DNA of 64,000 nucleotides from a virus, in the IMG/VR virus record IMGVR_UViG_3300016657_000126, positions 24,885-88,884 of that record; one strand, given 5' to 3'. Shown piece by piece: positions 1 to 29,402 of the stretch. The first letter of the stretch is position 1; each line of letters starts with the position of its first letter. The notes beneath the pieces are model-generated. The model was not told the origin of the DNA and did not search any database. It saw nothing but the letters and a program-made list of their open reading frames with translations. The position numbers and the translations under genes are program-made.

Positions 1-91
1 CAGATGGCCTCCTGCCCGGGCGTGAAGACAGGATCCTTCCAAAGGGCGGAGGGATCAACCGGCGGTATAGGTGAGATCTTGAGTGCTTCGC

Positions 92-463
92 TCATGCGCG
101 AATGGGAATGGTTTTCTTGGCCCACGCGAACAGCTCCGTCATCAGCTGCGTGTGGTGCTTCCATGAATCCTCGCCGCACAGATGCAGGTAGCCGTCTTGC
201 GCGCCGGCGGGCGCGACTCGCTCGCCGAACCAGACGTGGCAGCAACCGTCCCACTTCATGTAGTAGCGCAGGTAGAGCTCCTTGTCCACAGGCCGCCGCT
301 GATCGTCCCAGCCGGTGACTCGGTGCACCTCACCCTCGACGTAGTGCGGGGTCTGCGCCGCCGGCACGCGGATGAACTGCGCGAGCCCATCCTCGACCAC
401 CATCAGGTTTTCGTCCGGAGGTGGGGCAGGCGCCGGCGGCTCGCTGTCGTTACCCGAGAACAC
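92..463 (-). CDS. hypothetical protein
   Basis: ORF on the dominant coding strand, overlaps upstream neighbour; no motif recognised. Confidence 0.7.
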   Translation of the reverse strand: MFSGNDSEPPAPAPPPDENLMVVEDGLAQFIRVPAAQTPHYVEGEVHRVTGWDDQRRPVDKELYLRYYMKWDGCCHVWFGERVAPAGAQDGYLHLCGEDSWKHHTQLMTELFAWAKKTIPIRA

Positions 464-839
464 TGTTCCTCCCGGTCAGGCGTCCGCTCTCGGTCGCGCG
501 ATAGGATCCGCGGCGGTGCAGATCGAACATAAGGTAGAGCGCGGCCTCGCGCTGCGTCTTGCGGACGGCCGCCAAGGTCGGCGTGTGCGCCCCCGTGTGC
601 TGCGACGCCGGAGCCAGCGATACTTCGGCGCGCCAAGAATCGTTGACGAAGCTCCGGAGCGTCACCTCGTAGCTCAGCGACTCGAGCAAGTTGAGCAGCT
701 CTTCCAGCGACCGGTGCTCGTAGGTTGCCGCTGGCTGAAACAGGAAGTCGCGCCACTTGTGCACCAACTTCGGGGCGTGGTCGGTGGTGATGGCGACAGT
801 TGCGTGCTTGGTCAGATCGATCAGGACGTAGGCGGGCAT
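450..839 (-). CDS. hypothetical protein
   Basis: ORF overlapping both neighbours; GC3-rich codons. Confidence 0.7.
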   Translation of the reverse strand: MPAYVLIDLTKHATVAITTDHAPKLVHKWRDFLFQPAATYEHRSLEELLNLLESLSYEVTLRSFVNDSWRAEVSLAPASQHTGAHTPTLAAVRKTQREAALYLMFDLHRRGSYRATESGRLTGRNSVLG

Positions 840-1678
840 TCGGGTGCGGGGATGAGGGCTTGAGTCAGGCGGTTTCCGGCGGTCTCGCCATTCGCGATGG
901 CGCGCTCGACCAGCACGTCGTTGTCGAAGAACGTGCAGAGCTCGTTATCGACCATGCAGAGTCGCTTCAGGATGCCCGCGAAGAACAGCGCCATCTTGTC
1001 GTCGTAGGGCTTGATGGTCCAGGCGGGGCGTGTGTGTTCGCAGGTGGGGTCGTCGGGCGCGGACTTGAGCGGAGACCACAGGTGCAGCTGAGCGCGGGCC
1101 GACGCGTTTATCTGCTCGCGCGTCCATTCGCTCGGCAGCCACCACACCTTCCAGTGGACCTTCTCAATGCCCGGCCGGGTGTGAACCTCGCGGAGCATGT
1201 GGAAGGCCTGGAGACCGAACAGCCCGCCGTCGCGAGCCTCGCGCGCGGAATGGTCGTGCTTGCCGCGGCGCTCCTTCCACGTCCCGTGTTCGGTGTCGGC
1301 CGCCGGATCGCGCCCGCCGGCGGCGATGGAACCGTCGGGGTTCTGCCAGTAGCTGAGCGAAGACACGAACCGATAGACCAGATGCTCGGTCGTGGTGATC
1401 TCGCACTTGTGCAGGTCGTGAAGGAGCTGCCGGGTGGTCTGGACGGCGAGATAGAGCTCGCGCGCCTGGACCTGCCATAGATGCGCGGCGCGCTTCGACA
1501 TCGCGAGCAGGCCCTTGTTCTTCAGCGCTTGGAGGCTGCCATAGACCTCGTTGAACTCCGCCGGCAGGTCGATTGAGAACACGCCCTCGGCGCTGACCTT
1601 GGTCGGCAGCGACCAACCTTTCTTTTCACCTGTGATCTCGTTCTCGAAATGGATGTAGGTGTCGGGAAGCTTAGGCAT
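821..1678 (-). CDS. hypothetical phage protein, probable distant paralog of 8606..9730
   Basis: 285 aa; shares V..EG.F...LP, YRF and a FA.(I/V)LK helix pattern with 8606..9730. Confidence 0.75.
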   Translation of the reverse strand: MPKLPDTYIHFENEITGEKKGWSLPTKVSAEGVFSIDLPAEFNEVYGSLQALKNKGLLAMSKRAAHLWQVQARELYLAVQTTRQLLHDLHKCEITTTEHLVYRFVSSLSYWQNPDGSIAAGGRDPAADTEHGTWKERRGKHDHSAREARDGGLFGLQAFHMLREVHTRPGIEKVHWKVWWLPSEWTREQINASARAQLHLWSPLKSAPDDPTCEHTRPAWTIKPYDDKMALFFAGILKRLCMVDNELCTFFDNDVLVERAIANGETAGNRLTQALIPAPECPPTS

Positions 1679-1952
1679 GGGCGGTAGGTTTTACGGGGAC
1701 CCAAGTCACCTCGGTGGCGTCGTAGGTGGAAAGAACATTCCGCAGCAGGTCCGCCCAGAAGCTGTCCGGCTTTCTGAGATAATCGGCGGTGAACACCGGG
1801 CAAACAGCTTCGTTCCCGGGCAGGATGAAACTGACGCCCCAGCCGCGCACGGCCAGGCACCCAAGGTCGCGCACGTGCAGGAACGATCTCTCGGTGGGCA
1901 TCGCCACCTCGGTGTCCTCGAAGCGCTCGATGTCTTCTTTTTTAGCTATCAT
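1671..1952 (-). CDS. hypothetical protein (93 aa)
   Basis: Start moved to ATG at 1952 (MIAKKEDIERF); the upstream ORF-track extension runs through the non-coding array. Confidence 0.65.
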   Translation of the reverse strand: MIAKKEDIERFEDTEVAMPTERSFLHVRDLGCLAVRGWGVSFILPGNEAVCPVFTADYLRKPDSFWADLLRNVLSTYDATEVTWVPVKPTAHA

Positions 1953-1968
1953 GTGTTTAGAAATTGGT

Positions 1969-1990
1969 GCTCCCCATGACGGAGGGGAGC
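1969..1990 (-). terminator. 7-bp GC stem-loop closing the 3' end of the pentamer array
   Basis: GCTCCCC (1969-1975) pairs with GGGGAGC (1984-1990), 8-nt loop; followed on minus strand by ACCAATTTCT (weak U tract). Confidence 0.5.
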
Positions 1991-2005
1991 GGGCCGACCA
2001 TTTGT

Positions 2006-2258
2006 GCGAAGCATCTCGTGACTCCGCATTGCCGTAGCGAAGCTGTGACAGGCTTTGCCGCAGCTGTGCGGAACGACTCGTAGCTTTGCCTTCGCGGCGC
2101 GCGGAGGCGCCGGGCTCTTCCATGCCGAGGCAGGGCCTCGCCGGACCTTGCTTTGCCGCCGCTACGCGCCGCCGGGCTTAGCCATCGCCGATACGAGCGC
2201 AGAGGTGATGCGCCCCGCAGTGCCGTTGCTAAGCCAAGCATCGAACTGCTGCGCCGTC
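2006..2258 (-). ncRNA. Pentamer-periodic array, block 1 (putative guide-RNA units, VIPR-like)
   Basis: Parses as NNN+GC pentamers with GGC boundaries at plus-strand GCC 2031, 2057, 2088, 2124, 2155, 2181, 2222, 2253 (spacings 26,31,36,31,26,41,31). Confidence 0.8.
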
Positions 2259-2289
2259 GCTGTGTCCGGTATCTAACCCGGCTGCCATG
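2259..2289 (-). repeat. 31-bp direct repeat, copy 1 (array leader)
   Basis: gctgtgtccggtatctaacccggctgccatg, identical to 2603..2633; contains CCGG...CCGG inverted repeat. Confidence 0.95.
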
Positions 2290-2292
2290 TTT

Positions 2293-2602
2293 GCCATCGC
2301 GCCGTTTTGAGGGGCAGGGCATTGAGGTGCCTCCGCGATTCAGTGCTCAGCTTTGCCTTCGCCAGGCATCGCTGCGCAGCTCGAGGGCTCGCCACGCTAC
2401 GCCATCACCGAGGTCTGCTGGGCTGTTCAGTGCCCTGGCATCGCGGTGCGCGGGTGTGCGACGCATTGCGAAGCCGTCGCGACGATACGAAGCGCTTTGA
2501 TGAGCAATGCCATTGCGTGACACGGCCGCGCAGTGCCATGCCTTCGCGACGATACGCTGCGCTTTACCATGCCGTCACGGTGCCCAGGCGAGCTTTGCCT
2601 CT
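2293..2602 (-). ncRNA. Pentamer-periodic array, block 2 (putative guide-RNA units, VIPR-like)
   Basis: GGC boundaries at plus-strand GCC 2293, 2329, 2355, 2401, 2432, 2473, 2509, 2540, 2571, 2597 (spacings 36,26,46,31,41,36,31,31,26); all 50 internal linkers are GC or one substitution from GC (hand count). Confidence 0.8.
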
Positions 2603-2633
2603 GCTGTGTCCGGTATCTAACCCGGCTGCCATG
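2603..2633 (-). repeat. 31-bp direct repeat, copy 2 (array leader)
   Basis: Identical to 2259..2289. Confidence 0.95.
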
Positions 2634-2642
2634 GTTTTGGAA

Positions 2643-2671
2643 TTGAAACAACCGTTCCCTGAATTTAACTT
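2643..2671 (+). promoter_or_regulatory. possible sigma70-type promoter for the HNH gene
   Basis: TTGAAA (2643-2648)-N17-TAACTT (2666-2671) in an AT-rich gap, 10 nt before ATG 2682. Confidence 0.3.
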
Positions 2672-2681
2672 GCTAGGTTAT

Positions 2682-3221
2682 ATGCCCTACACGCCCCGCG
2701 CACCAAAGCAAAAGTTCTCATGCGCGCGCTGTGATAAACCTTTCGAGGTTCTGGCCTATGTAGCGCGCAAAAAACCTTGCCGGTTTTGCTCCACCGAGTG
2801 CTACCACGCCGACAAGAAAGGCCGCTATATCACCGTTCCTTGCACGCAGTGCGGGAAAGAATTCGAATCGGCTAATTGGCAGCGACGGCGCACCAAGATT
2901 GGGGTATTCTGCTCGCATAAGTGCTACGGGCGTTGGCGCAGCGCCAATCTAAAAGGAGCAGCGTGCCCGTGGTATAAAGGGCGCCCGGGAATAAAGCGTT
3001 ACGAGGGTGGTTGGAAACGTGCACGCCAAGCAGCCAAGGAGCGCGACAACTACACCTGCCGTGATTGCGGTGTGCAGCATCCTCCGAAGAGTCGAAAGCT
3101 CGACGTGCACCACATTGTCCCCTACCGGCGATTCAAGATTCCTGAGAATGCGAACCGCCTGGATAACCTGCTGACGCTGTGTCGCCCGTGTCACAACGGG
3201 CGCACGCACAAAAAGACCTAA
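2682..3221 (+). CDS. HNH endonuclease with N-terminal Zn-finger (CxxC...FCSxxC) repeats; probable free-standing homing endonuclease
   Basis: CRDCG...LDVHHIVP...NLLTLCRPCHN HNH core; two CxxCxKxF...FCS.xC repeats; opposite strand to all neighbours; start at ATG 2682. Confidence 0.9.
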   Translation: MPYTPRAPKQKFSCARCDKPFEVLAYVARKKPCRFCSTECYHADKKGRYITVPCTQCGKEFESANWQRRRTKIGVFCSHKCYGRWRSANLKGAACPWYKGRPGIKRYEGGWKRARQAAKERDNYTCRDCGVQHPPKSRKLDVHHIVPYRRFKIPENANRLDNLLTLCRPCHNGRTHKKT

Positions 3222-3925
3222 GTCCTTTCTTCCCAAGAAAATCTACCTTTTCCAGAGTTCCGCCACTGCCCTAGCCCCCTGAGGCGCCCGTAGTTGAGCA
3301 TCTCCTCGATCCACGGCCAGAGGTCCTCGGTGAGGTAGGTGATCTCGAAATCGAGCGTCGATCCCTCGGGCACCGTCTCGCTGCGGGCCAGCGCCACACG
3401 CTCGCCCTGCATCGTCTGGACGCGGAGCGGGCGCTCGCACACGCCGATGAAGCCGCCCTCGGGTAATTGGAAGCGCACCTTGCGCGGCGCCGGGAAGATA
3501 AGGCCGTCGATGTTCTTTTTGTAGGCCTTCACGCCCTTGGACTTCGTGCCTTCGACCACGCGCAGCGCTCCGCACGCATCTTTGAAGAAGCCCTTTAGCA
3601 TATAATCCCAGAACACCGGATGCCCGTGTTTGCGAACGGCCGCGACCTGCGGGTTGAGCACGTCGAGGGCCTTCGTGTCCTTCAGGCACCAGGCCTTGTG
3701 CTGGGCGAGGATCAGCGCCTTGTGCTCGGGTGCGTCGTAGTCGAGGTCGAAGATGCTGGTGCTCGCGTCCTCGATGTGCGCGGCCTGCAGCAGCTCCTCC
3801 TCGCGCGCCTCGTCCGGCACGTCGTTGGCCTTGGTCAGCACGTGCGTGGCGAGCAGGTCTTTGTTGGCGGACTTGGTTCCGAGGAGTTCCTCGATGAGAG
3901 TGATGCGAATCTTTTTGGTGTGCAT
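3218..3925 (-). CDS. stand-alone Cas7/RAMP-family RNA-binding protein (Vipr-like)
   Basis: RAMP hallmarks: N-terminal strand KIRITLIEELLG, PVFWDYMLKGFFKDA (cf. P.IPGSSLKG), RSETVPEGSTLDFEI, C-terminal Gly-rich loop GLGQWRNSGKGRF; no other cas gene in the window. Confidence 0.85.
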   Translation of the reverse strand: MHTKKIRITLIEELLGTKSANKDLLATHVLTKANDVPDEAREEELLQAAHIEDASTSIFDLDYDAPEHKALILAQHKAWCLKDTKALDVLNPQVAAVRKHGHPVFWDYMLKGFFKDACGALRVVEGTKSKGVKAYKKNIDGLIFPAPRKVRFQLPEGGFIGVCERPLRVQTMQGERVALARSETVPEGSTLDFEITYLTEDLWPWIEEMLNYGRLRGLGQWRNSGKGRFSWEERT

Positions 3926-3964
3926 ATCAGAGATGGAATGGAGCGATGATGGTTTCCTTCACGG

Positions 3965-4873
3965 TCAGAGCAGCGTCTTCAGGAACTGTTCAACGGACTG
4001 TGCGCAGCTGCCGAAGCCGCCGACCCAGCGGTAGCCGCGGTCGCCGTAGTGCGTCTTCACCTCGCTGTAGCGCTTGCTGGCGTTGTCGCCGACGAACACC
4101 GCGTCGAGGCCCTTGGGCAGCACGAACGGAAGCTCGACGTGGTCCAGCTGCTGGATGCGCAGGTTGAAGCCCTTCGACACCTCCAGCGCATTGATCTTGT
4201 CCTCGACGTGGCGCAGGTCTCGCTCATAGAGACCGACGATGCCGATGTGGATCTTGGGGCGGTCTTTCTTAGCCACCTTCACCGGCTCCTTCGACTTGAA
4301 GCCCGACACCATCGTCGCCAGGTCCCCCGGGCTTGCGGCCAGCACGATGGAGGCCAGGCGCTCGACGGCGTTGGACACCGCGCGCAGCTTGTCCTGGGAC
4401 TCGGTGGCATACATCGAGGCCAGCTCCATCGCCTCGGGATCCACTCGCTTCAGCAGGGCCGCCTGCGCATTCAGCGACTCGTTGATGCCGGCGATCTCCT
4501 GCCCGAACGCCTGTATGGCCTTGGCCGACTCCACCAGCATCTGCTCGGTGGCCGTGAGGCGGGTCTCGAGGCGCTTCATCCGCTCCTCTTCCTGGACCAG
4601 CCGTCGGCGCTCGAACAGCTGGTCGACGATCGTGGGGATGGGCTTCTCAGTCACCCAGTCGTAGCTTTGGTCGGCGCCGAACTCCAGGACCTCGATGGCC
4701 TGGAGTTCGGTGATGAGCGCTGCGTCGATGTCGAACGAATCGCGCAGGGATTTCAGCTTTGGGTCGGATCCTCTCTGCAGCGAGATCTTCAGGCAGTGCA
4801 GGAATGTCTCGATGTCGGATCGCGTGTCCTGGGGCGACGGAGCCTCGGCAGTTTCGGTGTTCACAGCTGTCAT
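3965..4873 (-). CDS. hypothetical coiled-coil protein
   Basis: Start moved to ATG 4873 (MTAVNTE); central heptad-rich helix. Confidence 0.75.
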   Translation of the reverse strand: MTAVNTETAEAPSPQDTRSDIETFLHCLKISLQRGSDPKLKSLRDSFDIDAALITELQAIEVLEFGADQSYDWVTEKPIPTIVDQLFERRRLVQEEERMKRLETRLTATEQMLVESAKAIQAFGQEIAGINESLNAQAALLKRVDPEAMELASMYATESQDKLRAVSNAVERLASIVLAASPGDLATMVSGFKSKEPVKVAKKDRPKIHIGIVGLYERDLRHVEDKINALEVSKGFNLRIQQLDHVELPFVLPKGLDAVFVGDNASKRYSEVKTHYGDRGYRWVGGFGSCAQSVEQFLKTLL

Positions 4874-5010
4874 AGTTTCTTTTTGTAGGCTTTTCTCCGG
4901 CGCAGGTTCTTCACCGCGCGGTCGAACTCGGCGTTCTCTCTGTCCATCCGATCCAGCTTGTTTTGGTGGATCACCAGTGCGCGCGGCACTTTTGGTTTTG
5001 ATATGCTCAC
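4870..5010 (-). CDS. small basic hypothetical protein (46 aa)
   Basis: MSISKPKVPRAL...KAYKKKL; GTGA and ATGA overlaps with both neighbours; absent from the ORF track. Confidence 0.5.
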   Translation of the reverse strand: MSISKPKVPRALVIHQNKLDRMDRENAEFDRAVKNLRRRKAYKKKL

Positions 5011-5354
5011 GGGTATTTTCTCGGTTTGACGTCGCTGGCGAACATCCACGGGCCGACCTGCACGACGAAGACTCGCCCGTAGTCATCTCCGCTTGTCACC
5101 CGGCTCTCGCGAATGTCCTTCGCGAATTCCTCGGCCGCCTCCCGCGTAGGGAACGGGTGCGCGTTCCATTTCGGGTAGACCAGGTTGAATAGGAACAGCG
5201 GGTGCTCCATGGAGCTGCCTGTGTAGGCCGGCTCCGGGCGCCGAGGGAGATTACACGGCAGGCAGAAACCTTCGCGAAATCCGCTACCGAAGCTGACGTC
5301 CTCGAAGAACGCGCGGAATGCGTCGCCCAGCGCTTCGGCGCTCACTCCAGGCAC
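5007..5354 (-). CDS. hypothetical protein
   Basis: ORF overlapping neighbours on coding strand. Confidence 0.6.
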   Translation of the reverse strand: MPGVSAEALGDAFRAFFEDVSFGSGFREGFCLPCNLPRRPEPAYTGSSMEHPLFLFNLVYPKWNAHPFPTREAAEEFAKDIRESRVTSGDDYGRVFVVQVGPWMFASDVKPRKYP

Positions 5355-5719
5355 TGAAGGAGGTCTTTCATCTGCCAGGCGCGTAGCTTCTCCTTGGACT
5401 CGGGCGAGGCGCGCAGCGGGGTAATCTCCTCTTCCGGCGCGTCATCCGAATCGTCTACTCTGTCGGGGTCTCCGAAAACAGCGTCCCTGGTATGCGCAGC
5501 CATGGCGTCAGGTCCGCGCGCGGTCAGATCGGCGATGTCTTCTTCCAGCGCCTGCGCGTTCACGGCGATGTGATAAGCGCAGTCGCCGTCGTCATCCACG
5601 CGAATGCGCAGGAACGGCCCGTTCTCTCCGAGGTCGAATATGTGGATCAGCTCGTGCGCGCCGACGCTGATAGTGGCGCCGTCTTCCGGCAGAGAACCGA
5701 ACAGCTTGGTGATGTTCAT
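5342..5719 (-). CDS. hypothetical protein
   Basis: Start moved to ATG 5719 (TGATG overlap). Confidence 0.65.
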   Translation of the reverse strand: MNITKLFGSLPEDGATISVGAHELIHIFDLGENGPFLRIRVDDDGDCAYHIAVNAQALEEDIADLTARGPDAMAAHTRDAVFGDPDRVDDSDDAPEEEITPLRASPESKEKLRAWQMKDLLQCLE

Positions 5720-5985
5720 CAGTTCTCCAAATCGATGTAGCCGGCGCCGGCCACTTCCATGTCCTCCTTCACCTGCTCCCAGGCGGCGGCGATCTGCAGC
5801 CATACACTGGTCTGCGCGAGCGTCTCCTCGAAGCGCTCCGGGGTGATCATCGTGCGGTTGGCGTCGCCGTAGGACGTCGCGCACGCGTCGCTGAAGTCTT
5901 CCTTCAGCTGCTCGGCGTTGTGGGAAGCCAACGTGGTGAACACCGACGAGGCGGTGACAAACTTACAGGTCTCGAAACTAAGCAT
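5719..5985 (-). CDS. hypothetical protein
   Basis: ORF overlapping both neighbours. Confidence 0.65.
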   Translation of the reverse strand: MLSFETCKFVTASSVFTTLASHNAEQLKEDFSDACATSYGDANRTMITPERFEETLAQTSVWLQIAAAWEQVKEDMEVAGAGYIDLEN

Positions 5986-6913
5986 GGGAATTGGAACGTG
6001 GTCTGATTACGAACTTCCATCTGATACCTTCGGGCGGCGCGATAGGCGGGATCCATTTCCACGTGCCCCGGACGTTCTTGTAGAACTCGGAGTTGAAGTG
6101 TCGGATGTGCCCGATGCGCCCCTTGAACTCGCGCTTAACGCCCGTCGGCTCGTCTCCTTCAGAGCGCTCGGCGCTCGCCACGCGCGGTAGCGTCCGAACG
6201 TGCCATACATTGCCGTTCGTCGGAGCGCCCTTGCCCCGCGCCAACACGCCAGCGCTCTTCCGCTCCGCGTGGGTATTCAACCGCTTCACACTGTCGCGCA
6301 CCTCGGGCACGGCGGCGAATGCCAGCACCTTCAGCGCCAGCACGGTCATGTAGGACAACGCCGCCGCCTCGTCGGGTGTCAGACCCTCGTCGAAGGGCAT
6401 CACGCGCGGCAGGGTGGCTTCCGACAGAAACTCCCCGCGCATGAGCTCGTCGAGCTTGTGGTCGGGGAAGTTCATGACCACGCCCGCGCGCTCACCAGTA
6501 ACCGGGTGCTCAGGCTGCTGGAGCATCGCCACCGTGACCTTCTGCCCGGACACGTTCTCCTCCGGCGCTATGAGGTGAATGAGCATGTTGGGTAGCGTCG
6601 AATCCTCCCAAGCGATCTCCAGCCTTTGTGCGGGCCACGGAATCGCGCTGAGTGACTCGACGGATATCTTGCTGGCCTCCAGCGCGGCGCTCACCTCCTT
6701 GGACACCATCACCAGGCTGCCGTCAGCCAGCTGCGACGTGGTCATCATGGCGCACAGTCCGGTGGGTCCGCCTAGCGCGGTCATCCGACGGGCCATCGCG
6801 AGGACTTCTTTCACAGGCTTTCCTTTGATCATGTCCACGTAACGCTCGCCGTGTGCGGAAAGCCACGCCAGGTTCTTGCAGAACGATGAGAGATCGGGCC
6901 GTGTGATTGTCAT
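5978..6913 (-). CDS. hypothetical phage protein with C-terminal GHxR...W.WI.P motif
   Basis: 311 aa; KGRIGHIRHF...WKWIPP resembles a recurrent uncharacterised phage C-terminal motif (recalled). Confidence 0.75.
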   Translation of the reverse strand: MTITRPDLSSFCKNLAWLSAHGERYVDMIKGKPVKEVLAMARRMTALGGPTGLCAMMTTSQLADGSLVMVSKEVSAALEASKISVESLSAIPWPAQRLEIAWEDSTLPNMLIHLIAPEENVSGQKVTVAMLQQPEHPVTGERAGVVMNFPDHKLDELMRGEFLSEATLPRVMPFDEGLTPDEAAALSYMTVLALKVLAFAAVPEVRDSVKRLNTHAERKSAGVLARGKGAPTNGNVWHVRTLPRVASAERSEGDEPTGVKREFKGRIGHIRHFNSEFYKNVRGTWKWIPPIAPPEGIRWKFVIRPRSNSHA

Positions 6914-7617
6914 AAGGGTTGAGACGAGTAGGTTGCTGCGGATGTGCGAGCGACTCGCGCGCGAGCCAGGCTCTGTCGAACCTTGGCGCGCCAGTGCGTG
7001 TTTCTTTGAGCCTTCGGGTGTCGCCGGACGGCCGCGTAAATGTCAGTGAGCGAGACCGGCCCGCGGCGCTCCCTGAGGATGCGCACGACGAGTTCGGTCC
7101 AGCTTTCCTCCGCCACGATCAACCAGCTGCGCGGGAAGCGGAGCGGCACGAACTGCCCGGGCAGCTGGCAGGCCTCGAGCGTGTCCAGTTCCTCGGCGCC
7201 GTAGCCGATGAGCACGGACGGCGCGCCGGCGTTGGCCTCGGCCCTGGATCCGTCCGGTAGATGGAAGTGCAGCCGTCCGCGGAGGAACCGCAGGGCATGC
7301 GCACGCTCCCACACGTGGCGGAAGAAGGCGTCGGTCTCCGTGCGGGCGAAGATCAGCGCCACGCCACGACCATGCCGCCACAGGCGTTCGAGCCAGGCGC
7401 CGATCACCGTCTTTTCATACGGTGGATTCAGAAATACGCGCCCGAACCAAGGCAGCGCCAGCCCGTCCTGCGGCAGGCAGTAGCGGGTGGCCGCCGTTGG
7501 CCATGCCGGATGGCCGCAGGGGTCCAGGTCGAAGTGCCCGAGGGCCTCGAGCACCGCCGGCGGTGTCAGCCACGTCTGCGTCTTCGGCAGGGGCGACTGG
7601 TGACCGCCGATGCTCAC
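6910..7617 (-). CDS. phage Dam-type DNA N6-adenine methyltransferase with C-terminal winged-helix-like tail
   Basis: TWLTPP, FDLDPC, VFLNPPY, ALIFARTET; tail SWTELVVRILRERRGPVSLTDIYAAV. Confidence 0.88.
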   Translation of the reverse strand: MSIGGHQSPLPKTQTWLTPPAVLEALGHFDLDPCGHPAWPTAATRYCLPQDGLALPWFGRVFLNPPYEKTVIGAWLERLWRHGRGVALIFARTETDAFFRHVWERAHALRFLRGRLHFHLPDGSRAEANAGAPSVLIGYGAEELDTLEACQLPGQFVPLRFPRSWLIVAEESWTELVVRILRERRGPVSLTDIYAAVRRHPKAQRNTHWRAKVRQSLARARVARTSAATYSSQPL

Positions 7618-7919
7618 TTCAACAGCGCGACCACGCGCTTGATGGCCGGCAGATCGATCTTTCCGCCGCAGGCCTTGATGTAGTTGGCCTGGTCACTGAC
7701 GCGCGAAAGGTCGCCGGCGATGATCCGGTTGGCGAGCGCCTTGCAGCTGAAACCGTTCGGGTGCTCAGCCAGCTCCTCGTCGTCGAAGAACAGCTTGTGC
7801 GTGTCGAGCTTCGGCAGCGCGCGCACTTCTAACGTGTGGTTGCCGACCTTAACCGGCGTCAGGATTTCCGGATCGTTTGACGGCAGCAGAGAGCCGCCGA
7901 TGTGACGTTGCTTTGGCAT
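7614..7919 (-). CDS. hypothetical protein
   Basis: ORF overlapping MTase start (GTGA). Confidence 0.65.
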   Translation of the reverse strand: MPKQRHIGGSLLPSNDPEILTPVKVGNHTLEVRALPKLDTHKLFFDDEELAEHPNGFSCKALANRIIAGDLSRVSDQANYIKACGGKIDLPAIKRVVALLK

Positions 7920-8264
7920 GGGTGGGTTTCGGGTTACCGCCGAGTTCTTCCGGGATCAAGGTGAGGGCGCGCTTCGCGGACACCGGCATGTAGGCGTCGC
8001 CCGGCGTCGCGGCCTGCACGCGCATCAAGCTTCCCTGAATGTAGACGCTGAACTTGGTGCTGCCTGCGCGCTGGACGATGAACGTGCCGTTGCCGAGCAC
8101 GACGTCGGTGTTCGCGCGGAACGCCCAGTAGCGATCTTGCGGCGCCGACTGCATCATGCGCGCTTGATCGGGAGCGGACCTCCGGACGGACGCTTGCTCA
8201 GCCCGAGTAGCGCCGGCGCTCGGTTGACCGGGACCGTCGCACTGTTCGCGTTCCTGGGTGGGCG

Positions 8265-11007: not shown

Positions 11008-11445
11008 TTAGCTATCAGCACTCGCCTTCGCCTTCGCAATTCGACGGTTGGTCAGCACGCGCAGCTTGTTCCACGCGCGCCAATACTTGCTCGGGTGCCG
11101 CGGATCCACGTCCGTCGTGCACGAGATGAACTCGTCGCGCCCGCAACCCTCGTTGGCCAAGTAGAGGTCCAGCAGATCTCGCGCGGCCTTCACCAGCGGG
11201 TCGAGCTTCGGCGTCTGCACCGCCACCAGGTAGTAGCAGTGCGCGAGACCCCGCGGCGAACCCTTGCCCGCGCCGAAAACGAACCAACCCTCGATCTCAC
11301 CGTCAGGCTGGCGTGTGACGTGCGCCCACGGGGCCGGCGAACGCTTCGTCTTGTAGCCGCCCCAGCCCATGCGCTCCCACCGCAGGTAGCCGGCAGGCAC
11401 CGGTGGATCCTTGGGCAGCCGCTTCCGATTGTGACGCGCGCTCAC
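11008..11445 (-). CDS. hypothetical protein
   Basis: Start moved to GTG 11445 (GTGA overlap with upstream stop). Confidence 0.7.
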   Translation of the reverse strand: MSARHNRKRLPKDPPVPAGYLRWERMGWGGYKTKRSPAPWAHVTRQPDGEIEGWFVFGAGKGSPRGLAHCYYLVAVQTPKLDPLVKAARDLLDLYLANEGCGRDEFISCTTDVDPRHPSKYWRAWNKLRVLTNRRIAKAKASADS

Positions 11446-28144: not shown

Positions 28145-28731
28145 GACACGCTCACCCTGAACGGGAGTTGTTTCTGGTCGAGCATGAGGAAAGCCGCCGC
28201 GAGCAGGTTGTCGCTGGTAACCGGTGTCCAGCGCGACACCATGCCCTTGTCACTCCCCGCCAGCTGAAGGAACGCCTGGCGCCTGAGCGCCGCCTGCCAA
28301 GTCCCCCAAACGGCAACGACCGAAGCCTCCGAATCCTGCACCTTGTCGAGCGCATGCTCACCATGCTGCCACACCCGGATAGAGGTCAGAAAATTGTCCG
28401 CAGTGATAGGCTTCCTGCGCGTGTAAGCGGCGAGCCACTGCCGCATGTAAGCAGTGCCCGACACATTCCGACCGCCGGGCTTGATGTTGCCGCCGTCTGC
28501 ATCGGCTGCCGCGAGCCAGAGATCCAAGGGCATCATTGGACGCCCGTCCCAGGTGGACACGAGACCCACGGTCATGACGTTCCACTTGGGTTCTCTGGGA
28601 TAGAGGTTGTTGCAGCAAACCTTGCGACAGAACAGCGTGAGCTCCTTATCACGCGAAGTCGGGAAGCGAGGATCATCCTTTGGGATCTCCAGCGTAGCGC
28701 AGCGCTTCTCTGTCTCGATATCGTAGCTCAT
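28141..28731 (-). CDS. hypothetical protein
   Basis: Start moved to ATG 28731 (ATGA overlap). Confidence 0.65.
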   Translation of the reverse strand: MSYDIETEKRCATLEIPKDDPRFPTSRDKELTLFCRKVCCNNLYPREPKWNVMTVGLVSTWDGRPMMPLDLWLAAADADGGNIKPGGRNVSGTAYMRQWLAAYTRRKPITADNFLTSIRVWQHGEHALDKVQDSEASVVAVWGTWQAALRRQAFLQLAGSDKGMVSRWTPVTSDNLLAAAFLMLDQKQLPFRVSVS

Positions 28732-29054
28732 GCCTTGGATTCTCCGGCGGATAGGCAGGCGCGAGCGCACGCGAGAATTTTCTTCAACGCGCGCCCGCGA
28801 TCGAAGAATCTGGGACTCGACGCTATCGTGACGATGTCGCACATGGCGGCGTAGTAGGCCCCTTGGTTTATGGCGTGCGGAGTGTGCTGCGCATCGGCAA
28901 CGGCAATCACGTCGACGAACATGGCGACGTCCACGTGGCCTTTGTTGAAGGTGACGTCGGTTTTTCCGTCATTACGCGGGATCCTGGTAAAACCGTCCGC
29001 CACAATAGTGACAGGCCTGTCGCGATGATTCAGGAATACATTGAAAGTTGCCAT
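28728..29054 (-). CDS. hypothetical protein
   Basis: ORF in operon-like run. Confidence 0.65.
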   Translation of the reverse strand: MATFNVFLNHRDRPVTIVADGFTRIPRNDGKTDVTFNKGHVDVAMFVDVIAVADAQHTPHAINQGAYYAAMCDIVTIASSPRFFDRGRALKKILACARACLSAGESKA

Positions 29055-29057
29055 AGG

Positions 29058-29402
29058 CTATTCGGCGGATCGCCGATCAAGAAAGTTTTCGTATGACTCT
29101 GTCTCCAACGAAGGGAACTCGTAAGACCCTTCGTCCATGCTGGCGAGCGCATCATGCTCTTCTGGAGACAGCGCGCAGTGCTCCTTTAGATAGGCAAAAG
29201 CATCCTCGCGCTCCAGGAATTTACCTGTCTGATCCACGAATCCATCCGTGACCGTGCGCAGATCTGAACCAAACAGACCGTGCCGCATGGCATATTCCCA
29301 GATCAAAGCGTGCAGGACTCCCGGATAAGCGGCCACGAGGATCTGGTCCCCGAACATGACGGCCGTCCTCAGCCGCCGGTCTGGTCCTTGCTGATTCGCC
29401 AT
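29058..29402 (-). CDS. hypothetical phage protein
   Basis: H...W...DGFVDQTGKFLEREDA motif (recurrent in phage hypotheticals, recalled). Confidence 0.7.
   Translation of the reverse strand: MANQQGPDRRLRTAVMFGDQILVAAYPGVLHALIWEYAMRHGLFGSDLRTVTDGFVDQTGKFLEREDAFAYLKEHCALSPEEHDALASMDEGSYEFPSLETESYENFLDRRSAE

What the first reader, a model, noticed from the sequence alone, without database searches (positions are those of the whole stretch)
2006..2602. Grammar of the array: variable triplets interleaved with GC linkers, units bounded by GGC
On the minus strand each unit reads GGC-(NNN-GC)k-NNN. By hand count 61 of 91 internal linkers are GC and 90 of 91 are within one substitution of GC; all 16 boundary-to-boundary spacings are 5n+1. 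Removing linkers gives, from 2596 downward: AAATCGTGGACCGAC; ATGAAAGCAGTAGTCGAA; ATGACTGCGCGTCACAAT; ATTTCAAAAGCTGTAGTCGAC; TTCAATGTCACACGCACCGATCAG; ACTACACCAAGATCGGAT; GTAGTGGAGCTCGCTGCAGATCTGGAA; AAATGAACTATCGGA; ACCAATCCTCCCAAAGGCGAT; then in block 1 GCAAGTGATTTGTTAAAC; ACTGGGGCAACCTGCTCGTCGGAT; TAACCGGGCGTAGGC; AAAAAGCCGGAGCCTCTC; ATGAGACCGGCCCGCGCCGAA; AAATACGTCTCCACATGC; AAACTGACATTCTAC; AATGGACACGATTTCACA. 13 of 17 start with A, about half end in GAN, and three start with ATG. Inference: each unit stores a 15-27-nt target cut into triplets, read either as full triplets or as NN with every third base skipped, which would ignore codon wobble.
Basis: partly seen in the sequence, partly recalled or inferred. 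Interest (0 to 1): 0.85.

Follow-up and report, generated by a model that had tools for sequence, protein, structure and literature searches.

The report
Phage VIPR guide-RNA array
This 600-base stretch is the guide-RNA array of a phage VIPR system, a CRISPR-like RNA-guided DNA-silencing system first described in 2026. One of its 17 guides spells the conserved core of a bacterial ParE-like toxin gene, which hints that the phage aims it at a toxin-antitoxin module.

Summary
On the minus strand there are 17 units of GGC-(NNN-GC)k-NNN. 61 of 91 linkers are GC and 90 of 91 are within one change. All 16 spacings are 5n+1.

It is a known kind of element: a VIPR guide (vrRNA) array (bioRxiv 10.64898/2026.04.26.720920 and .720927). 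This scan has already noted more than 100 such loci on other DNA.

- The 235-aa gene at 3218-3925 folds as a Cas7-type RAMP.
- It belongs to a family of over 5,000 proteins.
- In 76 of 80 related viral loci the same grammar sits beside the gene on the same strand, with different variable letters.
- The HNH gene between gene and array is a later insertion. A wastewater relative lacks it.

One result here supports it. Unit 2475 matches 16/16 read bases, antisense and in codon phase, to the W-S-V-R-V-T-L-N motif of ParE-like toxin genes. At least 24 of 120 metagenome hits fall there.

The other units gave no target above shuffled controls. The 'A' starts and 'GAN' ends are boundary signals shared by the whole family.

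Verdict: a new member of a known kind, with one new target lead.

The parts
3218..3925 (-). vipr-like gene: a 235-aa minimal Cas7-type RAMP protein
   Evidence: The AlphaFold2 model built on 46 homologues has pLDDT 80.9. All of the top 50 Foldseek PDB hits are Cas7/Csm3/Cmr4 subunits, best E 4.5e-6. The family has more than 5,050 members. Its G-loop G-x-G-Q-W-R-N-S-G-K-G-R-F aligns to the SUSP1 Vipr G-loop. The last 25 codons have GC3 of 0.56 against 0.89 for the rest, so the gene end looks recoded.
2631..3221 (+). HNH homing-endonuclease gene inserted between the vipr gene and the array; not part of the system
   Evidence: Pfam HNH, E 3e-8. Contigs of a wastewater relative join 2636 to 3233, skipping 596 nt, with 20 other letters between. 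Orthologous loci have the array directly beside the vipr gene. HNH relatives elsewhere carry no array.
2645..2665 (-). Remnant of the original vipr 3' end, left on the far side of the HNH insertion
   Evidence: It translates to NSGNGCF, against NSGKGRF in the gene.
2602..2631 (-). 30-nt motif, copy 1, heading block 2. In the HNH-less relative it starts a few bases after the vipr stop codon.
   Evidence: There are two exact copies in the genome and none elsewhere. It is not found in 90 orthologous loci at up to 8 mismatches. It holds a weak CCGG/CCGG hairpin. Its function is unknown.
2296..2599 (-). Array block 2: nine guide units of 5 to 9 triplets
   Evidence: Parses. It is about 99% identical in the wastewater relative.
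2435..2475 (-). Unit 2475: 8 triplets, the guide with a candidate natural target
   Evidence: Its NNx pattern matches the WSVRVTLN codons of ParE-like toxin genes (Pfam PF24732), antisense and in codon phase, in at least 24 of 120 metagenome hits with 15 distinct site sequences. The best site is 23/24 identical to the decoded unit.
2258..2287 (-). 30-nt motif, copy 2, heading block 1
2006..2255 (-). Array block 1: eight guide units of 5 to 8 triplets
   Evidence: Parses. In the wastewater relative the units around 2131-2184 are replaced, including a net 5-nt insertion.
1965..2000 (-). Hairpin that closes the array, terminator-like
   Evidence: RNAfold gives -17.4 kcal/mol with a 7-bp G+C stem, followed by a weak U tract. 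Orthologue L036 ends its array with a clear intrinsic terminator.

Best explanation
The stretch is the guide-RNA (vrRNA) array of a VIPR system carried by a 197-kb phage from a freshwater metagenome.

Shown here:
- A minimal Cas7-like RAMP gene (3218-3925, minus strand) lies upstream of a non-coding array of 5-nt repeats on the same strand.
- The same gene-plus-array arrangement and the same grammar recur in hundreds of viral contigs, with different variable letters.
- Each repeat is N1 N2 N3 G C. Units of 5-9 repeats are separated by one extra G (GGC), which shifts the phase by +1.
- The boundary signature is R-A-N / G-G-C / A.
- An HNH homing endonuclease has since been inserted between gene and array.

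Inferred from the published VIPR mechanism:
- The array is transcribed on the minus strand.
- RAMP protomers coat the RNA, one per pentamer. They bury the G-C, which corresponds to G2-Y3 of the canonical GGY, and present N1N2.
- N1N2 pairs with double-stranded DNA while every third target base is skipped. Binding blocks transcription.
- In this clade the first G of GGY is free (N3). This fits the G-loop, where SUSP1 D177, the residue that reads G1, is Q here, while W178 and R179, which hold G2 and Y3, are kept.
- Each GGC-bounded unit is probably a separate short guide of 10-18 read bases. This is likely the 'staggered array' architecture that the preprint mentions but did not test.

Lead, about 50% likely: unit 2475 is aimed at the WSVRVTLN core of ParE-like toxin genes. 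In these operons the antitoxin comes first and the toxin second. A roadblock inside the toxin gene would lower toxin but not antitoxin synthesis, which would disarm the module of a host or of a rival element.
For: Grammar and its significance.

RAMP fold. There are also weak sequence hits to the Cas7 and Csm4 G-loops.

Family size and context:
- More than 5,050 homologues and at least 577 IMG/VR loci.
- 76 of 80 loci have an array beside the gene on the same strand. Across 981 units the boundary is GGC 67% and GGA 27%, the linker is GC 61.5% and GA 21.5%, the last triplet has A at position 2 in 76%, and the first base is A in 65%.
- The array starts directly after the stop codon in L036, L038, L076 and L080-L082.
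- Two contigs that encode the identical protein (L081, L082) differ by whole units and by point changes.

Published class, rule, alternative YNNNG repeats and staggered arrays.

The SUSP1 Vipr was identified in NC_028808.2 with the paper's residue numbers. The profile alignment of the G-loop gives D177->Q220, W178=W221 and R179=R222.

HNH-less relative.

ParE lead:
- At least 24 of 120 exact NNx hits in metagenome contigs fall in Pfam ParE_like genes (E 1.4e-9). All are antisense and all are in codon phase.
- There are 15 different site sequences from several subfamilies.
- The antitoxin ORF lies directly upstream.
- No other scan gave a family cluster above about 5% of its hits.
Against: There is no RNA evidence. 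The runs that hold the array are probably DNA, and contigs cannot show ends. No promoter was found by the consensus scan.

Sequence similarity to the experimentally studied Vipr is limited to 26 G-loop columns (E 0.0026, probability 12%). There is no vap accessory gene and no conserved 3' tail after each unit.

Sixteen of the 17 units have no target above chance.
- Own genome.
- IMG/VR: 31 hits for the real unit 2403 against 20 for its permuted version.
- A local 1.5-Mb set of related loci.
- Co-hit tests.

Among species-representative genomes only 1 of 66 exact hits is ParE-like. The other units do not converge on these loci.

Units of 5 repeats read only 10 bases, which is very little specificity for a free-standing guide.
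Confidence: 0.85

Rival explanations
1. Full-triplet code. In this clade all three variable bases of each pentamer pair with the target. The target is then a contiguous 15-27-nt string with no skipped base.
For: N3 is as unconstrained as N1 and N2 (0.03 bit). It changes between related units at a similar rate: 9.0% against 6.5% and 7.8%. The G-loop residue that reads G1 in SUSP1 is replaced, so N3 could be free to pair. The best ParE-like site agrees at 7 of 8 N3 positions, 23/24 overall; permuting the N3 vector gives P(max>=7) = 0.02. ParE-like sites average 3.58 of 8 N3 matches, against 2.40 for the other hits.
Against: The solved complexes show one target base extruded per protomer by a thumb-bundle pocket. 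N3 is 49% G+C while codon position 3 in this genome is 75%. The guide's T at N3 position 7 disagrees with all 15 ParE site variants, and most N3 agreement falls on the C-rich wobble consensus; P for the mean is 0.2. The two paralogous units 2573 and 2511 differ only at N3. Searching the own genome with full triplets gives no excess: 79 mismatches against 81.5 in shuffles.
Confidence: 0.12
2. Each block is one long vrRNA of about 50 repeats. The GGC 'boundaries' are only phase slips that the filament tolerates, not ends of separate guides.
For: No conserved tail, hairpin or ribozyme separates the units. Only two 30-nt motifs and one terminal hairpin punctuate the array. Ten read bases seem too few for a guide.
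Against: The boundary has its own conserved signature, R-A-N/GG[C/A]/A, over 981 units. Unit length is tightly distributed at 4-8 repeats. Related arrays differ by whole units. The ParE match covers exactly one unit from its first doublet to its last, and the neighbouring units do not continue the match. The preprint describes staggered arrays whose processed vrRNAs end where the next one begins.
Confidence: 0.12
3. The ParE-like match of unit 2475 is a coincidence: a 16-base gapped pattern that happens to equal the read bases of an abundant, conserved 8-residue motif. The true targets of the array are unsampled rival phages or satellites.
For: Only one unit shows it, and no other unit converges on these loci. 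Only 1 of 66 hits in species-representative genomes is ParE-like. In 401 genomes of the Bryobacterales MAG's phylum, hits with up to one mismatch are 20 against 9 for the backwards control. No shuffled control was possible in the metagenome collection. An earlier claim of this type in this scan partly fell on later checking.
Against: At least 24 of 120 hits fall in one family, with 15 distinct sequences. All are on the same strand and in the same codon phase, on the family's most conserved motif. My rough estimate, which is inference and not a computation, is that a random 16-base pattern would do this less than about once in a thousand. Aiming guides at codon-determining bases of a conserved core is the behaviour published for SUSP1 vrRNA4.
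Confidence: 0.45
4. The stretch is not a guide array. It is a structural or decoy RNA, or a DNA-level element such as a protein-binding array, an origin or a decayed repeat, whose variable positions carry no information.
For: No target was found for 16 of the 17 units. There is no RNA evidence.
Against: It is always beside a Cas7-like RAMP gene on the same strand. The linker positions are conserved, while the variable positions are near-random and differ between orthologues. It has no Rfam match and no ORF spans it. Closely related systems have been shown experimentally to be guides.
Confidence: 0.03

Closest known systems
VIPR systems with alternative YNNNG repeats and 'staggered' vrRNA arrays (bioRxiv 10.64898/2026.04.26.720920, methods and figs S17-S18)
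   Same: A lone minimal RAMP gene is flanked by a long non-coding tract of 5-nt repeats. Only part of GGY is kept: here x-G-C, which is C-N-N-N-G when written from the pyrimidine. Successive units abut without spacer, tail or ribozyme, and the phase steps by one base at each junction. The carrier is viral.
   Different: I could not see the figures or tables, so identity with the preprint's staggered type and the type number (I-VII) are unverified. The preprint says only the ribozyme-interspersed and single-vrRNA architectures were confirmed by small-RNA sequencing, so this architecture is untested. The R-A-N/GGC/A boundary signature, the two 30-nt motifs and the HNH insertion are described here from this locus and its relatives.
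Type II VIPR of Escherichia phage SUSP1 (Vipr = NC_028808.2 28474-29061, minus strand; structures in bioRxiv 10.64898/2026.04.26.720927)
   Same: The protein is a RAMP of similar size, and the G-loop G-x-G-x-W-R...G-R-F keeps the W and R that hold G2 and Y3. One protomer per pentamer is expected. Guides lie next to the gene on its strand. NN is read with the wobble base skipped, as seen here for unit 2475.
   Different: SUSP1 repeats are strict GGY-NN; here the first G is free, and D177, which reads G1, is Q. SUSP1 vrRNAs are about 100 nt with 9-16 repeats and a conserved 3' pseudoknot tail; here units have 5-9 repeats and no tail. SUSP1 has vap1; no accessory gene was recognised here. Outside the G-loop there is no detectable sequence similarity.
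SUSP1 vrRNA4 against the satellite recombinase core (bioRxiv 10.64898/2026.10.15.759431)
   Same: A guide footprint falls entirely on codon positions 1-2 of a conserved protein core, with the skipped bases on wobble positions. The target cannot escape by synonymous change.
   Different: That target is a satellite's excision recombinase and was tested experimentally. Here the candidate is a ParE-like toxin of a toxin-antitoxin operon. It rests on sequence matches only, and neither the papers held nor earlier notes of this scan name this target class.
Class 1 CRISPR crRNA-Cas7 filaments (types I, III, VII)
   Same: The protein has the Cas7 fold. It is expected to polymerise along the guide with a fixed footprint and a thumb that breaks pairing periodically.
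   Different: The period is 5 nt with 2 read bases, not 6 nt with 5. There are no repeat-spacer array, no cas1/cas2 and no other cas genes. The specificity of each unit is spread over many tiny 'spacers'.

Membership tests
VIPR system | Vipr protein: a minimal single-RRM RAMP with a glycine-rich loop and a thumb | tested here: met
   The model has pLDDT 80.9. The top 50 PDB matches are all Cas7/Csm3-type subunits. An invariant G-loop GxGQWRNSGKGRF sits at the C-terminus.
VIPR system | vrRNA region: tandem 5-nt repeats with a conserved GGY-like part and hypervariable bases, next to vipr on the same strand | tested here: met
   The form is relaxed to x-G-C + NN, the YNNNG type allowed by the preprint's classification. 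There are 108 repeats. The same holds in 76 of 80 related loci.
VIPR system | Minimal locus without a CRISPR array or other cas genes; mostly viral carriers | tested here: met
   No tandem or CRISPR-type repeats in 1-8000. The neighbouring ORFs have no Pfam or PHROG hit except a Dam-like methylase. The genome is a 197-kb virus record.
VIPR system | Target recognition by the NN bases with one skipped target base (1-nt skip rule), skip bases on wobble positions | tested here: inconclusive
   One unit fits perfectly and in phase on ParE-like genes. All other tests were at chance.
VIPR system | Expressed, processed vrRNAs that co-purify with Vipr and repress bound genes | not testable with these tools
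   Only contigs of runs that are probably DNA hold the array.
VIPR system | Detectable homology of the protein to a validated Vipr | tested here: inconclusive
   hhalign of the family profile against SUSP1 Vipr aligns 26 G-loop columns, E 0.0026, probability 12%. tblastn of the 235-aa protein against GenBank phage records returned only four uncultured faecal phage records, not SUSP1. No Vipr structure appeared among the listed Foldseek hits against PDB entries released up to 2026-04-08.
VIPR type II (SUSP1 clade) | Strict GGY-NN repeats, 9-16 per vrRNA, each capped by a conserved 3' tail or pseudoknot; vap1 accessory gene | tested here: not met
   The first G is not conserved. Units have 5-9 repeats with no tail between them. 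No accessory gene is conserved among orthologous loci. The SUSP1 array was read for comparison.
CRISPR-Cas | Array of 25-40-nt direct repeats separated by unique spacers, with cas genes | tested here: not met
   No such repeats were found. The only repeated element is the 30-nt motif, present in two copies.

The most novel reading that the evidence does not exclude
Unit 2475 is a working guide against the conserved WSVRVTLN core of ParE-like toxin genes. The phage would then use RNA-guided, wobble-blind silencing to disarm a toxin-antitoxin module of its host or of a rival element. That would be a target class not reported for VIPR. A further possibility is that in this clade the freed first base of GGY also pairs, giving a 3-of-5 code.
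Probability: 0.35. Interest if true: 0.7.

Novelty: new member of a known kind. Interest (0 to 1): 0.4.

Why it matters
The class is already in print, and this scan has met it many times, so the array itself is not a discovery. Three points are still useful.

1. This family is very large: more than 5,000 proteins and at least 577 viral loci. It uses the least-studied VIPR architecture, with short abutting units and only G-C conserved. The data here give a concrete grammar, R-A-N/GG[C/A]/A boundaries with a +1 phase step. They also give a residue-level rationale, the G-loop change from D to Q, that can be tested directly.

2. Gene callers misread these arrays as ORFs. A 335-aa 'gene' was called on the L081 array, so the grammar helps annotation.

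3. If the ParE-like target is real, VIPR would be a counter-measure against toxin-antitoxin modules as well as a weapon against satellites and prophages. The antitoxin-first gene order suggests a simple way this could work.

Tried and rejected
- **HNH as an accessory nuclease (vap).** Rejected. An HNH-less relative exists, the vipr gene end is recoded and a remnant of the old end survives, and 33 HNH relatives carry no array.
- **Plus-strand reading.** Rejected. The boundary would then be GCC, and all orthologues have the array on the vipr strand.
- **Known RNA families, promoters and terminators.** There is no credible Rfam match: one hit, snoZ206, E 0.33, far below its gathering score. No sigma-70-like promoter was found.
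- **Single-sequence fold.** It was useless, pLDDT 39.
- **Self-targeting.**
  - Only unit 2126 has a perfect 14/14 NNx site, at genome 106857-106837. It is in codon phase in a 394-aa membrane-protein gene outside the window.
  - The permutation P is about 0.01.
  - Family-wide, 143 seven-triplet units gave 1 perfect hit against 1.2 expected.
  - None of the 80 listed IMG/VR hits (117 in all) for that pattern lies in a homologue of the gene. I treat it as chance.
- **The sibling note's match of unit 2542 to the gene start at 11445.** It scores 10 of 12 NN, below the best chance hits elsewhere in the genome.
- **IMG/VR exact scans.** Unit 2403 gave 31 hits against 20 for a permuted control. The hits were heterogeneous and N3 agreement was 21%. 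Unit 2475 gave 6 hits from two redundant groups, none in an open frame.
- **Co-hit ('convergence') tests on all fetched loci.** These were at the level of shuffles.
- **N3 substitution rates as a test of 'N3 unread'.** Not discriminating.
- **Doublet composition against codon phase.** Close to a uniform model, so it is weak evidence.
- **Words shared between this array and about 1,000 other units.** At chance.
- **Unit 2157's 11/12 site in L303 and L334.** It lies in a non-coding, repeat-like stretch at different distances from the toxin gene, so I treat it as chance.
- **A 22/24 sense match of unit 2475 in another genome (L496, sampled from the Bryobacterales MAG's phylum).** The site is the last codons of a 128-aa ORF upstream of an overlapping 462-aa ORF. 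It has one NN mismatch and is within what 20 hits would give by chance.
- **RNA evidence.** The runs labelled RNA-Seq are probably DNA, and their contigs cover the neighbouring genes as well.
Full report
**1. The observation**

Read on the minus strand, 2599-2006 parses without remainder into 17 units of GGC-(NNN-LL)k-NNN.
- 108 triplets and 91 linkers, of which 61 are GC and 90 are within one substitution;
- 16 spacings of 26, 31, 36, 41 or 46 nt, all 5n+1;
- 13 of 17 units start with A, 3 start with ATG and 8 end in GAN.

The signal is far beyond chance.
- Lag-5 autocorrelation is 0.41, against 0.19-0.29 at lags 1-4 and 6-9.
- This is the strongest 5-nt-periodic stretch of the whole 196,897-bp virus record.
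- A grammar HMM run over both strands of the genome finds no second array.
- The three variable positions carry 0.09, 0.06 and 0.03 bit. The linker positions carry 1.10 and 1.23 bit.

Two exact copies of a 30-nt motif (2631-2602 and 2287-2258) head the two blocks and occur nowhere else in the genome. A G+C-rich hairpin at 2000-1965 closes the array.

**2. The surroundings**

Most genes in this part of the window run on the minus strand.

The plus-strand ORF 2631-3221 is an HNH endonuclease with two zinc-ribbon modules (Pfam E 3e-8). The minus-strand 'ORFs' 2718-2918 and 2949-3236 are its antisense.

Upstream on the minus strand lies a 235-aa gene (3218-3925) with no Pfam or PHROG hit. Folded on an alignment of 46 homologues, it gives a confident model (pLDDT 80.9). 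All of its 50 best PDB matches are Cas7-family RAMP subunits of type VII and type III CRISPR complexes, best E 4.5e-6. A note of this scan on the same genome had called the pair 'VIPR-like', and that led me to the papers.

**3. What is known**

VIPR systems pair a minimal RAMP, Vipr, with vrRNAs built of GGY/NN pentamers. They are described in bioRxiv 10.64898/2026.04.26.720920, .720927 and 10.64898/2026.10.15.759431.
- One protomer binds each pentamer. It buries GGY and presents NN.
- NN pairs with double-stranded DNA while one target base per repeat is skipped.
- Natural targets are mostly coding, with the skipped base on the wobble position.
- Binding silences transcription.
- The classification methods list alternative NNNGG, YNNNG and NNNNG repeats.
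- The text mentions 'staggered arrays with overlapping vrRNAs'. These were not among the architectures confirmed by small-RNA sequencing.

**4. Membership**

The 235-aa protein belongs to a family of more than 5,050 proteins of about 195-200 aa, with at least 577 loci in IMG/VR.

In loci fetched through single homologues, the array begins a few bases after the stop codon on the same strand, with the same grammar (L036, L038, L076, L080-L082).

In 76 of 80 IMG/VR loci an array of at least four abutting units lies next to the gene, either just upstream or just downstream. Over 981 units:
- the boundary is GGC 67%, GGA 27%, GGT 4%;
- the linker is GC 61.5%, GA 21.5%, GT 8%;
- units mostly have 4-8 triplets;
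- the inner triplets are uninformative;
- the last triplet is R-A-N, with A at position 2 in 76%;
- the first base is A in 65%.

The variable positions differ between loci. Two contigs that encode the identical protein (L081, L082) differ by whole units and by point changes.

The strand is fixed by co-orientation with the gene and by the asymmetric GG[C/A] boundary.

**5. Why the first G is free**

I located the SUSP1 Vipr in NC_028808.2 at 28474-29061, minus strand. It is flanked by canonical GGY-NN tracts. Its residues H17, K33, R39, K82, R138, D177, W178 and R179 match the numbering of the structure paper.

The family profile aligns to it only over the G-loop (E 0.0026, 26 columns).
- W178, which stacks on G2, corresponds to W221.
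- R179, which holds Y3, corresponds to R222.
- D177, which hydrogen-bonds G1, is Q220, a nearly invariant residue in the family.

By the preprint's own notation the repeat is C-N-N-N-G, so the read doublet is N1N2. This step rests on a short alignment and is inference.

**6. The HNH gene is a later insertion**

Contigs of a relative in wastewater runs join 2636 to 3233. They skip 596 nt and carry 20 other letters at the joint.

In this phage the last 25 codons of the vipr gene drop from GC3 0.89 to 0.56. A remnant of the old gene end (NSGNGCF against NSGKGRF) survives at 2665-2645. This confirms the sibling note.

In that relative, block 2 is about 99% identical. The units around 2131-2184 are replaced and include a net 5-nt insertion, which is unit-level turnover.

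Those runs are probably DNA, so there is no expression evidence.

**7. Targets: negative results**

The own genome gives nothing convincing. Total NNx mismatches are 26, against 30.1 +/- 2.1 in shuffles, and another phase does as well. The single perfect site, for unit 2126, is compatible with chance once the family-wide control is applied.

Exact gapped scans of IMG/VR gave:
- 31 hits for unit 2403, against 20 for its permuted control;
- 6 hits for unit 2475;
- 117 hits for unit 2126.

The hits were heterogeneous, N3 agreement was at the chance level, and no contig was hit by several units beyond what shuffles give.

A local 1.5-Mb set made of the related loci plus this genome showed no excess of perfect hits for 738 units under any phase.

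**8. Targets: one positive lead**

I ran the NNx pattern of unit 2475 (2475-2435, eight triplets) against the metagenome collection.

At least 24 rows lie in one family of about 90-aa proteins that Pfam calls ParE_like toxin (PF24732, E 1.4e-9). In every case:
- the match is on the antisense strand of the gene;
- the eight read doublets are positions 1-2 of the codons for W-S-V-R-V-T-L-N;
- every skipped base is a wobble position.

This motif is the most conserved stretch of these proteins in the members seen here. The 24 sites comprise 15 different sequences from several subfamilies, so they are not redundant contigs.

In most of the loci with enough flank, a small ORF of 67-84 aa lies directly upstream of the toxin gene. 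In L334 it overlaps the toxin start by 4 nt, the usual antitoxin-then-toxin order.

No other scan produced a family cluster above about 5% of its hits.

The caveats are real.
- No shuffled control could be run in that collection.
- In species-representative genomes only 1 of 66 exact hits is ParE-like (L462, a Bryobacterales MAG).
- In 401 genomes of that phylum, hits with up to one mismatch number 20, against 9 for the backwards control.
- The other 16 units do not converge on these loci.
- The phage itself has no ParE_like gene.

I put the chance that this is a real target near one half. Neither the held literature nor earlier notes of this scan link VIPR to toxins. The principle of aiming at codon-determining bases of a conserved core is, however, already published for a satellite recombinase.

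**9. The third base**

The best ParE-like site (L303, L334) is identical to the decoded unit at 23 of 24 positions, including 7 of 8 third bases. ParE-like sites average 3.58 of 8 third-base matches, against 2.40 for the other hits.

Permuting the guide's third-base vector gives P = 0.02 for the maximum and 0.2 for the mean. Most of the agreement is with the C-rich wobble consensus, and one guide base disagrees with all 15 variants.

I record this as unexplained. It keeps the full-triplet reading alive at low probability.

**10. Verdict**

The object is a VIPR guide array of the relaxed, abutting-unit kind. It is a new member of a kind published in 2026 and already met many times in this scan.

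Four things are added here:
- the family-wide boundary grammar;
- a residue-level explanation for the lost G;
- proof that the HNH gene is an invader;
- a candidate target class, ParE-like toxins, that needs a proper control and an experiment.

Noticed in passing
window 2131-2184 (array block 1): In the wastewater relative this part of the array is replaced. It shows many differences plus insertions that sum to 5 nt, while block 2 and the motifs are about 99% identical. This looks like unit-level turnover between close relatives.
   Followed up: partly
window 2006-2599, linkers: This array uses TC as its second commonest linker (11 of 91, 12%). The 981 units of related loci use TC in 1.3% and GA in 21.5%. 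Here the C is the better-kept linker base; in the relatives it is the G.
   Followed up: no
genome C1:106837-106857 (outside the window), minus strand: Unit 2126 has a perfect 14/14 NNx match in codon phase, 18 codons before the stop of a 394-aa predicted membrane protein. The site starts at an internal ATG preceded by AAGGAG. It is nominally P about 0.01 but compatible with chance in the family-wide control.
   Followed up: yes
L081:3617-4624: The source's gene caller placed a 335-aa minus-strand 'gene' on what is a VIPR array of about 30 units. Such arrays can be mis-annotated as ORFs.
   Followed up: no
L496:1494-1880 (a genome sampled from the Bryobacterales MAG's phylum): The last codons of a 128-aa ORF that overlaps a downstream 462-aa ORF match decoded unit 2475 in the sense direction at 22 of 24 bases (15 of 16 NN). 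From memory, not tested, the pair resembles a ubiquitin-like protein with an E1-like enzyme. The match is within chance for the number of hits examined.
   Followed up: partly
window 6910-7617, minus strand: A Dam-like DNA N6-adenine methyltransferase (PHROG 111, E 2e-37). It is the only neighbour within 8 kb that has a family assignment, and its nearest DNA relatives are in Gordonia phages.
   Followed up: no
window 2258-2287 and 2602-2631: The two identical 30-nt motifs keep the 5-nt phase of the array with degenerate linkers. They are absent from 90 orthologous loci. Whether they are a promoter, a processing site or a fossil unit is open.
   Followed up: partly
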